A stretch of 64,000 bases of DNA from Eledone cirrhosa (taxonomy: Eukaryota). The stretch's first letter is position 1, and each line of letters starts with the position of its first letter. The position numbers and the translations under genes are program-made. Below the pieces are notes generated by a model, which saw only the letters and a program-made list of their open reading frames with translations, had not been told where the DNA came from and made no database searches. Location: contig OZ024741.1 in NCBI GenBank assembly GCA_964016885.1, forward strand, positions 157,108,001 to 157,172,000. The letters run 5' to 3'. This document shows positions 28,157-58,438 of this stretch, piece after piece.

Positions 28157-28246
28157 CCTGTTATGCGTGTTTCACAGAGGATTAGCACAGGGTCACCCAT
28201 AGATGTTATGGACCTGACTCCATTATTCATCTGCTCATCAGACTGG
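28157..28246 (-). ncRNA. Degenerate type I hammerhead ribozyme motif
   Basis: Minus strand: ccagu CUGAUGA gcaga[hairpin]ucugu GAAA cacgca UA acagg; stem I pairs 4 of 5, stem II is closed, stem III is damaged. Confidence 0.5.
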
Positions 28247-28330
28247 CGATATATAGACAGTATATATATATATATATATATATATATGAAGTTTAGACTA
28301 GGATTATTATTAAAATGGACTTGTGAACGT

Positions 28331-28428
28331 GCATTACTGGTACTTTATTTTATCGACCCTGTAAGAATGAAAGGCAAAGTTAACCTCGGCGGGATTTGAA
28401 CTCAGACCGTAAAAGGCCATAACTCTAT
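28331..28428 (-). mobile_element. Partial Nin/Deu-like SINE
   Basis: Plus strand reads ctggtactttattttatcgacc...aaggcaaagttaacctcggcgggatttgaactcaga. Confidence 0.75.
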
Positions 28429-28664
28429 AGTTATTATTACAAATAGTAATGTTTAAATATAACAAGGAAAACATGAAAATTATTAAAACCTAAAATAGTT
28501 ATTAAAATTTATAAGTGACAAAATATTTACATTCATTAACTATAGATATTTCATTAACTATAATACAAAAGCATGACATACACTAAAATAGATCAAAGAT
28601 GTATACTAATGAGATTTATAAAGTCTATTAATTGAAGTTATGGAAAAAATACTTTTAGAAAATA

Positions 28665-28720
28665 CTAGACTACCCGTGACCCGTTAGGTCACGTTTGCTT
28701 CAAAATATTTTTTTTCAAAT
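28665..28720 (-). mobile_element. Helitron 3' terminus
   Basis: Minus strand: perfect 7-bp hairpin cgtgacc-taacg-ggtcacg followed by ggtagtCTAG|t. Confidence 0.65.
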
Positions 28721-29275
28721 GATGTTCACTTAAAAATAATTTTTAAATAATTAAAATATACACAGACATGTATATAATGTGAAATGAAACTGGAAAGCCC
28801 ATATATATATATATATATATATATATATATATATATATATATATATATATATATATACGTGTGTGTATGTATATATATATAAATATATATATATGTATGT
28901 GTGTGTGTGTATATATATATATGTGTGGGTGTCTGTGATCTATATACATTGGTCATAGATACACACACACATATACACACACATGTATACATACACACGC
29001 ACTCATATATATATATACACATCACCACCAACTCTCTTCCATTCTCCTTCTCTGTCTCCTCTCCCTCTCTCTATGTCTCTCTTTCAATCTACTTTCTCAA
29101 AACCACTATCTCTTCCCATTTCAGGGTCAACTTCCTTTCAAAGTATTTTCCCATTATGCATCTTTATGGCTGTATTACATTACAGACAAGCAAGCAAGCA
29201 ATCACAGACTTAGTATTATATAAATGGATTAAAAGAACATTAAAATTAAGGAAACATAGAACAGCAATTGAATAT

Positions 29276-29630
29276 CTTCTTCTTCTTCTTCTTCTTCTTC
29301 TTCTTCTTCACCTACTTATTCCTGAGAGGGTTGTGGGGGTGTAGAGTCCTCAAACACTCCTTCCAGCAGGTCCTGTCAGAAGCAACGCTCTCCAACTGAT
29401 CCTGCTGGATCCCCAAGCATGACCAGCCAAGCTCATAGATGTTATCCAACCATCTTGCTCGGGGTCTACCCCTAGGTCTCTTTCCAGTTGATTTTGCCCA
29501 TAAAATCTGTCCAGCGATTCTTTCCTGAGATATTCTAACCACATGTCCAGAGTATCAGAGCTGTGATCTCTCAATTCGGAAAAGTAGCGGCTCTACCTGG
29601 AGTGATTCTCTGATCTCCGAACTATGCACT
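29276..29630 (-). mobile_element. RTE family A 3' end with (GAA)n tail
   Basis: GHVVRISQERIAGQIL..GKRPRGRPRARWLDNI..W, a stop, then gtgaagaagaag. Confidence 0.85.
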
Positions 29631-30104
29631 TATTGAATTATATCTATAATTAAAAGAAATCTTTAGTGACTCAAGAAATGTCAATGACTAAATTATATCA
29701 GTACAATAAGGCTGGGAATATAACCAAGGTGGGATTACAATTATATGATAAATAGGAGAAAAAAACCCTTTGAACTTATGTGTGTGTGTGTTAATTAAAA
29801 TTTTGGGTTCATTAAAAACTAGTAGTAATTTTACAAGATAGTTTAACAATAGTAGTATGATACAAATTTTCTAAGTGTTAATAAAAACACTTAAACAAGT
29901 GTATAATGGGTATAATTAATCTGGGTTGAAATTTTTGTGAAAGAAAGAATAAGATGTTGTATGTGGACACGATAAGACTATTTCATTTTTAAAATTGAGA
30001 AGGATAACTTTTGAAGTAATTATTTCTAATGCTTCAGTTAAACAAAGATTGTATTTAGTTCTACCTACATAAGGTTTTGCCGAATTAATAATATTCCATT
30101 TAAA

Positions 30105-30455
30105 ATGAGGGGCCTACTCCTTCAGAACATGAAGATTGTCATGCCATCTGGCCTTTCACCATCCCGTCACTTCAGCTCCACTGACTTGGCCTCGGAAGGA
30201 GAGCCTGCACCATCCAAGCCATGCTTTAGGATCTCCTTGAGAGCATCATGGCATAAGAGGAGGGAAGTACTGTAATAGCAAAACAGTAGGTGGAGACCGA
30301 AAGAATGCACAATGGAACTGCAGAGGCATTTGTGAAGCTCATGTTGCATATCTCCTCAACAGGAGTCGAGATCTGTGAAGAGAGATGCTTGGCTATAGCA
30401 GGAGACACTGCAGAAGGTGTAAAGGAACGTTGGCATGGCAAAGCAGTTCCTTAAC
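30105..30455 (-). mobile_element. CRE-like non-LTR retrotransposon remnant (zinc finger + restriction-like endonuclease)
   Basis: KCLCSSIVHSFGLHLLFC..CHDALKEILKHGLDGAGSPS..RDGERPDGMTI resembles the CCHC + RHD + RPDG signature of CRE-clade elements. Confidence 0.6.
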
Positions 30456-55465: not shown

Positions 55466-56419
55466 AGAAAAATGTGTGGGGGGGCGTGATTTCGGGGGCC
55501 AAAGGGGGCGTTTGGCCGAAATGGGTTGAGAACCTGTGGTGTAGGGGATGCACTCAATAGAGAGGGAGGTTGTGGGAAAGAGATAAGCACAGGCGGAGGG
55601 AGTGTATTGAGGGGTATGGGTTGGTAGTGGAGAATGATCAAGGTGTAGAAATAGAGTAGCTACTAGAGTACAATGGTGAGGATGTCTAAGTTCTTTAGAG
55701 GGGGGGTAGTTAAGGAGTGGTTCTGGAGGAGGCATGGATGGTGGATGCAGTAGTGGTGAAGATAGATGGTAGGGTGTGCTAGTGGGAGAGAGGGATAGCT
55801 GGTGTGTGGGGAGAGGGTATGTACTTGGTAGAGAGGGAGGGTTCATGGTGGAGAGATAGGTAAAGGGGTAGTAAGGAGATAAGGGATGGTTGTGGGGGTG
55901 AACTATAGGTAAAGAGAGTAGCTACTAGGGTACAATGGTGAAGATATCTAAGGTCTTTAGAGGTGTGTAGTAGTTAAGGAATTGGGTCATATTGTATGCT
56001 TCTGGCCAAGTCTTCATCATTGCATATTTTTTGTCCAACGCCAGAGAATGTTTTCACAAACCAACGTATCATCTTCCTGTTTTCCTTTGGTTGTAATGTT
56101 TTTTGAAATATTTTCTTCTGCGTCTACAGATTGATTTTTCTCAGTTTCAGAAGATCCCATAAAAGGGCGAAAGCAGCAATTCTTTGCTTAAACTTTAATC
56201 TGTACAAATATGAAATATTTGCTCTACAGATTTTATATATATAATCCTTATTGATCCCTCTTCAGATTTAGTCTTCATAATTATTATTACTATATATATA
56301 TATATATATATATATATATATATATATATATATATATATATATATATATATATATATATATATATATATATATATATATATATATATATATATATATATA
56401 TATATATATATATATATAA

Positions 56420-57205
56420 AGGTCATCTGTAGATGCTGCTCTTGTCTTGGAACTTTTCTTCTTGTTGCACTAAGATATGAGCATCTACAGTACTCTTCCC
56501 AGGTACAAAACAGAACTGCATCTCATCTGACTCTTTCCTTTGTGCTAGTCTTGTATTACTTTATTGACTATGTGAGTGACTAGTTTAATTCATAATTCCT
56601 CAGATGCTTTCAGCATCTAAGTGACTATCTCAAACAGTCAAGCATCATTACCATTTTTCCTCTCCTTGATTGCTTCTTTAACCATATAACTGTCAATTTC
56701 AATAGCTGGTCCCTTTGTTGATTCAGTTGGGAATAGTCACTTTTCATTCATATTCATTAACCTTTCATAGTAGCATTTCCAAGCCACTTTCTTTAGATTT
56801 TAAGTGCAACAGAATTATCTTGAACACATTTTGATTCATCACTGACACACTGCCTTGTGAACACCCTACATCTTTGATCTTCATGTCGCAAGACATTAAC
56901 AAGTCTCCTTCTTTCAGTCCCTTCGCATGTTATGTACTCCTGTCATCTAGCCTCTCTTTTCACTGTTTGATACTGGTTTCTGCTGCCCTAATTTTCCCAA
57001 TCTTTCCATACCTGTCTATTGGTCTTAATGGCTCTCTGCAAGGGGCTGTTCCGCCACTAGTTTACCCCTCTGTGAGGTTGGTGCTTTGCCAAGTGTCATC
57101 AGCAGACTGCAGTATGTTGTCAGGAAGGATCTTCCAATTATCCACTATGTCATATGTATCTAACTCATCTTCTCCCTCATCTTATGCATCATATAGAGCT
57201 TTCCT
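56420..57205 (-). mobile_element. Highly decayed RTE family B-like fragment (linker before RT)
   Basis: WNSPLQRAIK, AWKCYYERLMN, KGPAIEI and MLKAS remnants. Confidence 0.6.
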
Positions 57206-57334
57206 GAAACTATATATGCATGTGTGTGTGCGTGTGTGGGTGTGTGTATGAAAAATTAACATGGGTGAACAACATAGTACAATTATTATATATATAGTTC
57301 TATTACTTACCACTAATAATATATATATATATAT

Positions 57335-57522
57335 AATTGTTTCTACTTTGGCACAAGGCCAGCAATTACCCAGTGCATTACTGGTACTTTATTTTATCGA
57401 CCCCGTAAGGATGAAAGGCAAAGTCAACCTCGGCGGGATTTGAACTCAGATCGTAAAGGGACGTAACTATGCTGGAAAGCATGGCGTCCGACCCTCTACC
57501 GATACTGCCAATCCACCACCCT
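57335..57522 (-). mobile_element. Full-length Nin/Deu-like SINE
   Basis: Reverse complement of the 23867-24057 and 15618-15799 family. Confidence 0.85.
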
Positions 57523-57682
57523 CATATATATATAATAAGGAGTTGACGGACCCACCATATTTATCAATGCCAGGACCGGTTGCATCTCAGCGTACTGCGA
57601 TAGATAATGTAGGGTACATTCCCAGAGTATACACATAGTTATTCGCTTCAATACAACACACGTATTTTTTTTTTTTTTTTTT

Positions 57683-58272
57683 TTTTTTCAATATACTAAT
57701 GATTTTGATATCAGTAGATTACTGGGCCAAATCAAGTTATCTTAGAATCTTTAAAAAAATCTTTAAAAAATACTTGTACGAATTAAATACAAAAAAGTTT
57801 CAGTCCAAATCAAAAGCAAACTATTTCAAATTATATATTTTTTGAAAAATAGACGAAAAAGCTTTTTTTTTTAATTCTATATTTCACTGTTAGCTGTTGC
57901 AATATTGTAAAGTGTAAAGTCAAAATACAAAAGATGCAAAATATGAAGAATTTCTTACCAAACTCAAGGGAAAAATAGTATCTTGCAAAATAAAGTGCCT
58001 CGCTCACAAACATAGTTGCAACGAATGAAATGAGATGCTTGGTGACAGTGAGCAAACAATATCTGTATCCCTTATATATATATATATATATATATATATA
58101 TATATATATATATATATATATATATATATATATATACATAGATAGATACACGCACGCACACACTCACAAACTTGTGTGTGTGTGTGAGAGAGCCTTTTTG
58201 GGGGTACAGAAATAATTTTGTCTCCAGTTTTTATTGCCGGGTCAAAGGCCACTGCTCTTTCAACAACAACGC
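57683..58272. repeat. Right arm of ~600-bp long inverted repeat
   Basis: Ends aacaacgc|tatata, mirroring tatatg|gcgttgtt at 54858. Confidence 0.92.
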
Positions 58273-58322
58273 TATATATATATATATATATATATATATA
58301 TATATATATATATATATATATA

Positions 58323-58438
58323 AGTTTTAATATAGAAGAGCTTCTACAGGACTTGAACTGTTTCATTTGAACTGTTCCTGATGATTTCTCACGAATGAAA
58401 CAGTTCTAGTCCTGTAGAAGTTCTTCTATATTAAAACT
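58323..58438. repeat. Fold-back element (~45-bp arms) with CTGATGA...GAAA core
   Basis: agttttaatatagaagagcttctacaggacttgaactgtttcatt / aatgaaacagttctagtcctgtagaagttcttctatattaaaact. Confidence 0.85.

What the first reader, a model, noticed from the sequence alone, without database searches (positions are those of the whole stretch)
28157..58438. Dispersed hammerhead-bearing and fold-back mini-elements in (TA)n tracts (Penelope/retrozyme-like system)
Seen: CUGANGA-stem II-GAAA-short stem III-NUH motifs at 28157-28246(-), 33521-33563(-) and 37088-37152(+), decayed relatives at 34107-34150 and 58371-58415, several small inverted-repeat elements beside (TA)n, and a GIY-YIG Penelope remnant with an inverted end. 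Established: Penelope-like elements carry minimal type I hammerheads in their pseudo-LTRs, often form inverted ends, and non-autonomous hammerhead retroelements (retrozymes) exist in animals. Inference: several non-coding self-cleaving families are mobilised in trans by Penelope-like elements here; at least two stem-III types (augcgcau-like and agagcu-like) are present.
Basis: partly seen in the sequence, partly recalled or inferred. Interest (0 to 1): 0.75.

Follow-up and report, generated by a model that had tools for sequence, protein, structure and literature searches.

The report
Truncated Penelope ends, probable retrozyme drivers
The hammerhead-shaped RNA motifs are real but sit in cut-short end pieces of protein-coding Penelope-like jumping genes of a known kind; three mixed insertions elsewhere in the genome suggest that two of these families likely also copy a separate protein-free ribozyme repeat.

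Summary
All five motifs are present, and each belongs to a dispersed family (309-4,046 candidate places). They are not protein-free retrozymes. Every family traces to the pseudo-LTR of a Penelope-like element encoding reverse transcriptase and GIY-YIG: Hydra-type at 37088, 58371, the 35-36 kb remnant and (weaker link) 28157; Neptune-type at 33521 and 34107. The fold-backs are the known inverted second arm, and the two 3' ends fall at two fixed sites. Such motifs occur at about 64 per Mb in sampled stretches, so the window is ordinary. A true tandem retrozyme (468-482 nt unit, 10,122 exact core matches) exists in this genome but not in the window. Three insertions join it directly to the 37088 family (two) or the remnant's family (one), each with one long and one short end. 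This suggests these families copy it in trans. Cleavage is untested. The scan has already noted truncated Hydra ends, both core variants and the retrozymes on other DNA; the mixed insertions were not in the summaries I saw.

The parts
36592..37198 (+). Family A: young Hydra-type PLE insertion with two arms. Inverted arm 36592-36742 (long end), main arm 36745-37198 (short end), in (TA)n
37088..37152 (+). Family A type I hammerhead: CUGAUGA core at 37093, long helix II closed by A-U, palindromic helix III, predicted cut after 37147
28095..28250 (-). Family B: 5'-truncated PLE end (older, 85-89% to best copies) with hammerhead 28156-28247; GIY-YIG remnant 2.4 kb upstream in L320, shared with L253
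33397..33984 (-). Family C: Neptune-type PLE end with GIY-YIG remnant (33796-33984), 3' UTR and hammerhead 33521-33563
34085..34341 (+). Family D: sister of C, 5'-truncated end with a weak hammerhead 34106-34149 (helix I mismatch also in the family majority)
35019..36363 (-). Family F main arm: decayed Hydra-type RT-end/linker/GIY-YIG code (35565-36363), 3' UTR, U3-A8 hammerhead 35111-35206, long end
36375..36535 (+). Family F inverted arm with U3-A8 hammerhead 36437-36532, short end; abuts the (TA)n that holds family A
58317..58457 (+). Family E fold-back: two short opposed arms of a Hydra-type PLE end; hammerhead core at 58378 with helix I truncated; full-length relative with a 758-aa open frame in L249
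24630..24748 (.).
56143..56194 (+).

Best explanation
The motifs are type I hammerhead patterns in the pseudo-LTR ends of at least six protein-coding Penelope-like retrotransposon families, left as 5'-truncated, often two-armed copies in (TA)n tracts, likely by target-primed reverse transcription from two fixed internal start sites on a likely uncut RNA. Shown: family membership, link to RT/GIY-YIG frames, two fixed 3' ends, one long and one short arm, (TA)n flanks. Inferred: the GIY-YIG enzyme cuts both strands of TA-rich DNA and each strand primes on the element RNA. Copies run across the predicted cut site, so the template was uncut or re-joined. The shortest copies of A and E stop at one fixed 5' point, likely the RNA's start. 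The same enzymes likely copy the genome's tandem non-coding retrozyme in trans (three mixed insertions; about 0.65 for this step). The window copies themselves are probably inert debris.
For: ORF link: A, 602-aa frame in L033 and same-strand code upstream in 4 of 29 copies; C, 24 of 29 plus the window copy; D, 5 of 29; F, 3 of 29, the window copy, and pLTR-ORF-pLTR L242; E, tail reads in frame into the ORF in L248 and L249 (758 aa); B, remnant in L320 and L253. Hydra marks RWR, DKT, CxCx5C, CxxC and CxH in E and most of them in A (defined in PMC8557442 section 11). 3' ends at two sites per family, e.g. A about +51 and +132; one long and one short arm in 20 of 20 two-armed A loci (18 distinct insertions) and 15 of 20 F loci. 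(TA)3 next to the 3' end in 22-28 of 30 per family against 13% background. Fixed 5' stop: A 18 of 29 at -124 to -126; E 19 of 29 at -39 to -46. Cores decay in older families (17 and 18 of 29 intact). PMC4209133 describes such single and opposed min-HHRs; PMC11167929 shows two internal RT starts, two-strand priming and insertion without cleavage in vitro.
Against: For B and E no code lies within 1.5 kb upstream in 0 of 29 copies each. B's link rests on two decayed loci. Pfam support is weak and below the curated cut-offs (GIY-YIG E 0.015 and 0.0003, RVT_1 E 0.0003), so clade calls rest on motifs, not on a tree. The fixed 5' stops leave open that short RNAs from truncated copies are themselves re-copied in trans. 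A cap-derived G at the 5' stop was inconclusive (7 of 23 in A, 7 of 19 in E). The copies examined are top hits by likeness to the window copy, not a random draw.
Confidence: 0.87

Rival explanations
1. The short copies are separate non-autonomous hammerhead families (retrozymes or mini-PLEs) with their own small, possibly circular RNA, moved in trans.
For: Fixed 5' and 3' limits give discrete short elements in A and E, and looser ones in B and D. A real tandem non-coding family exists in the genome.
Against: Short and ORF-linked copies share the same end sequence (A: 96-99%). No head-to-tail pseudo-LTR monomer arrays were seen for A in the 30 loci. The tandem family has no match in the window.
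Confidence: 0.1
2. The retrozyme-PLE junctions are nested insertions or later rearrangements, not template switches, so families A and F are not shown to drive the retrozyme.
For: TA-targeting elements pile up at the same places (abutting F and A in the window). Only 3 distinct sites were found among 44 loci with the retrozyme core, some overlapping. The L180 site lies beside other F sequence.
Against: Junction gaps are 1-2 nt with no TA tract. In L338 and L340 the PLE does not resume on the far side. All three sites pair one long with one short end across two templates, and the short A end of the L340 insertion was predicted before it was fetched.
Confidence: 0.3
3. Chance motifs in AT-rich, repeat-rich DNA.
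For: CUGANGA alone is at chance level; no Rfam hit.
Against: 2 full matches against 0.06 shuffled in the window; 49 against 0.07 in 360 kb of sampled stretches; helices kept across families.
Confidence: 0.01

Closest known systems
Minimal hammerheads in pLTRs of metazoan Penelope-like elements (Cervera and de la Pena 2014, PMC4209133; parts 1-2 of 4 read)
   Same: Type I motif, short or palindromic helix III, unpaired base before helix II (C, D), G10.1-C11.1 (B, C, F), many families per genome, mostly single truncated copies, opposed pairs 100-700 bp apart, U3-A8 variant.
   Different: A closes helix II with A-U and E with U.U; E and F have a full 4-5 bp helix III; G has A at core position 4.
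Hydra-clade PLEs (Craig et al. 2021, PMC8557442; passages and section 11 read)
   Same: C-terminal GIY-YIG, RWK-like, DKT, CxCx5C, CxxC and CxH motifs, hammerheads, (TA)n insertion, inverted arm, tail at one end.
   Different: Tails here are about 60-80 nt rather than 30-40; 3' UTRs reach 1.2-2.4 kb with internal tandem repeats; no tree was built.
Neptune-clade PLEs (PMC8557442)
   Same: The sister frame of C and D (L244) has a CX4CxxC linker and C, C, H, H residues in the endonuclease.
   Different: No intact C or D copy was found; the assignment is by motif through a sister element.
PAc Poseidon element in vitro (Frangieh et al. 2024, PMC11167929; parts 1-2 of 4 read)
   Same: Two internal RT start sites equal the two genomic ends; both strands primed; AT-rich target; uncut RNA is the template.
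   Different: Different clade; nothing was assayed here.
Metazoan non-LTR retrozymes (PMC7229834, passages; bioRxiv 10.64898/2026.07.22.740005, parts 1-3 of 5)
   Same: The genome's 468-482-nt tandem family fits; PLE mobilisation is proposed there from co-occurrence and pLTR homology.
   Different: The window's motifs are not tandem or non-coding. The parts read do not report mixed PLE-retrozyme insertions.

Membership tests
Penelope-like elements (EN+) | RT followed by GIY-YIG endonuclease in one frame | tested here: met
   L249 758 aa (E) and L033 602 aa (A); decayed for F, C, D, B. Pfam hits are below the cut-offs.
Penelope-like elements (EN+) | Pseudo-LTR with hammerhead; tandem or inverted 5'-truncated copies; tail at one end | tested here: met
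Hydra clade (A, E, F, B) | RWK-like, DKT, CxCx5C linker, CxxC and CxH, (TA)n target | tested here: met
   E all five; A has DKT, linker, CxxC and CxH; F and B have the linker; TA flanks
Hydra clade (A, E, F, B) | Placement in the RT tree with reference Hydra elements | not tested
   No reference sequences fetched
Neptune clade (C, D) | CX2-5CxxC linker and CCHH residues in the endonuclease | tested here: met
   Sister frame in L244; C remnants match it at 51-90%, D at 51-56%
Type I hammerhead | Core, GAAA, UH and three helices | tested here: met
   Family majorities; window copies of B, D and E have helix I defects; D is weak even in the majority
Type I hammerhead | Self-cleavage at NUH | not testable with these tools
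   Needs an in vitro assay or raw RNA reads
Non-LTR retrozyme (window motifs) | No coding capacity in the family | tested here: not met
   All six families link to ORFs
Non-LTR retrozyme (window motifs) | Head-to-tail 150-450-nt monomers, each with a hammerhead | tested here: not met
   None at these places in the window; none in the 30 A loci; not screened formally for B-F
Non-LTR retrozyme (window motifs) | Abundant circular RNA | not testable with these tools
   Needs RNA data
Non-LTR retrozyme (tandem family R, outside the window) | Tandem non-coding monomers with one hammerhead each | tested here: met
   L269, L279, L322, L352

The most novel reading that the evidence does not exclude
The window holds the ends of the enzymes' own RNAs for this genome's retrozymes. 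Hydra-type families A and F copy a 468-nt non-coding hammerhead repeat in trans, and switch template between their own RNA and the repeat within one two-armed insertion while keeping the one-long, one-short rule. This names a specific driver-passenger pair for an animal retrozyme and makes the proposed PLE-retrozyme route testable with one protein and one RNA.
Probability: 0.6. Interest if true: 0.55.

Novelty: new member of a known kind. Interest (0 to 1): 0.33.

Why it matters
As flagged, the finding is ordinary: dispersed hammerheads in truncated Penelope ends were described in 2014 and occur here at tens per Mb. The useful extra is the driver evidence. The papers read propose that PLEs move animal retrozymes from co-occurrence and homology only. 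Mixed insertions point to a young family with a long open frame (A) as a concrete enzyme to test. The core variants side by side (C3-G8, U3-A8, U4A) also offer natural material for asking whether PLEs need cleavage at all.

Tried and rejected
My first label of A, E and F as Neptune was changed to Hydra. Rfam found no hammerhead. The repeat finder was swamped by microsatellites. One search was mis-aimed at a SINE and gave one useful locus (L301). The DNA search with the retrozyme unit returned nothing although the unit is present, probably because its words are too common; a pattern count replaced it. No RNA holder listed. Contigs of four runs laid on family A show presence only, nothing on ends or expression. 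The cap-G test was inconclusive. A relaxed U3-A8 scan missed the F motifs and was noisy in an AT-rich satellite. A shared tail hairpin was not evident from single folds of four tails. 5'-end clustering could not be tested for C and F because the queries excluded short copies. No formal covariation test was run; descriptor hits pair by construction.
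Full report
Setting. The window is G000:C2:157108001-157172000 in a 3.0-Gb animal assembly, rich in (TA)n, SINEs and LINE fragments. That it looks cephalopod-like is my recall, not a call result.

Observation. The five motifs are at the stated places. A strict type I descriptor passes two of them against 0.06 in 100 shuffles. 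CUGANGA alone is at chance level (35 against 31), and Rfam lists no hammerhead among 133 matches. Each motif has many relatives: A (37088) 309 candidates at 96-99%, B (28157) 1455 at 81-89%, C (33521) 3895 at 84-88%, D (34107) 648 at about 91%, E (58371) 868 at 94-97%, F (the remnant's end) 4046 at 93-96% (40 scored each, 30 fetched including the window copy). Core, GAAA and UH are intact in 28, 17, 18, 28 and 24 of 29 other copies of A-E (one B copy could not be parsed).

What the families are. A is the 3' end of an element with a 602-aa RT/linker/GIY-YIG frame and a 1.2-kb 3' UTR (L033, L035, L036). For C, 24 of 29 copies have GIY-YIG code directly upstream, as does the window copy at 33796-33984; for D 5 of 29; for F 3 of 29 plus the window copy and a pLTR-ORF-pLTR copy (L242). 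For E none of 29 has code within 1.5 kb upstream, but its tail reads in frame into an ORF in L248 and L249, and L249 holds 758 open codons and a second E-type hammerhead downstream. For B none of 29 has code within 1.5 kb; in L320 a GIY-YIG remnant lies 2.4 kb upstream of the hammerhead, and L253 shares the remnant's end and carries an inverted B end against it. This is the weakest link. By the motifs in PMC8557442 section 11, E, A, F and B are Hydra-type; C and D are Neptune-type through a sister frame. Pfam hits are weak and no tree was built.

Anatomy and mechanism. Each family ends at two fixed sites beyond the predicted cut (A about +51/+132, B +66/+130, C +126/+183, E about +20/+91, F +20/+98; D has three). 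Two-armed loci pair one long with one short end in 20 of 20 A loci (18 distinct insertions; one long end was over-extended by chaining) and 15 of 20 F loci. (TA)3 follows the 3' end in 22-28 of 30 loci per family against 13% background. Short copies stop at a fixed 5' point upstream of the cut: A 18 of 29 at -124 to -126, E 19 of 29 at -39 to -46, B and D more loosely. Because copies span the cut site, their template was uncut or re-joined (inference). This matches PMC11167929, where reverse transcription starts at two internal sites, both strands are primed and cleavage is dispensable in vitro. I infer that the shortest copies are run-off products from the 5' pseudo-LTR of the mRNA; the cap-G test did not settle this.

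Is the window unusual? In 36 stretches of 10 kb taken at round coordinates, a descriptor gave 49 hits against 0.07 shuffled: 23 dispersed and 26 in two tandem arrays. That is about 64 dispersed per Mb, or 4 expected per 64 kb; the window has 2 under the same rule. PMC4209133 describes this picture in other animals.

Missed motifs. F carries a U3-A8 core with long helices II and III, intact in 29 of 29 other copies and in both window arms; the variant is in PMC4209133 and PMC3088659 (passages). At 56148 a motif has CAGAAGA; 23 of 34 fetched copies have it, and 96 of the first 100 of 18,037 pattern matches read A at that place. Earlier scan notes report both.

The true retrozyme. The two arrays belong to a 468-482-nt non-coding unit with 10,122 exact matches to a 40-nt core pattern. 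It occurs as monomers to long arrays, with inverted arms, two fixed ends 59 nt apart and TA flanks, and has no match in the window. Of 44 loci holding its core (some overlapping), screened against A, E, F and the C sister, three distinct sites join it to a coding family with a 1-2-nt gap and no TA tract: L338 and L340 with A (93% and 98%), L180/L181 with F. A further hit (L324) is tail to tail across TA and is not counted. L338 has A's long end and the retrozyme's short end. L340 has the retrozyme's long end; I predicted a short A end and the fetched stretch shows it. L180 has the retrozyme's short end and F's long end. Template switching within one insertion explains this best; nested insertion is the rival, and three sites are few.

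Literature seen. Searches. PMC4209133 parts 1-2 of 4; PMC8557442 passages and section 11; PMC11167929 parts 1-2 of 4; bioRxiv 10.64898/2026.07.22.740005 parts 1-3 of 5; PMC7229834 and PMC3088659 passages. No supplements were read. I did not run a search aimed at PLE-retrozyme chimeras in print, so I say only that the parts read do not report them.

Verdict. Observation confirmed, interpretation partly supported. These are new members of known PLE clades, already noted several times by this scan on other DNA. Interest is low to moderate and rests mainly on the mixed insertions found outside the window.

Noticed in passing
L338, L340/L354, L180: Insertions that join the tandem non-coding hammerhead repeat directly to family A or F sequence, each with one long and one short end.
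   Followed up: partly
L269, L279, L322, L352: Tandem 468-482-nt hammerhead repeat, 10,122 exact core matches, arrays with inverted arms in (TA)n; hit by 2 of 36 sampled stretches.
   Followed up: partly
window 56143-56194: Hammerhead-shaped motif with a U4A core; family of at least 18,037 places; no ORF link established here.
   Followed up: partly
window 43769-43870, 43891-43995, 21111-21166: Further short fold-backs without a hammerhead core; 43891 matches the end of another repeat in 4 fetched loci, the other two matched none.
   Followed up: partly
window 54858-54960 and 58170-58272: Two opposed copies (about 88%) of a 100-nt piece next to (TA)n, part of a larger local inverted duplication; no match in other fetched loci.
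   Followed up: no
window 44975-53500 and 58530-64000: Several decayed L1/Tx1-like LINE copies (AP endonuclease and RT frames) in opposite orientations, giving kilobase inverted repeats; the family label is recalled.
   Followed up: no
window 29937-30107: Weak match to the end of a Hydra-type GIY-YIG frame on the minus strand (E about 1e-3).
   Followed up: no
window 11930-14084 and 17733-19668: Long degenerate trinucleotide arrays with 27/81-nt periods and long open frames, probably non-genic.
   Followed up: no
families E, G and the tandem repeat: All three open helix II with a U.U pair in place of G10.1-C11.1.
   Followed up: no
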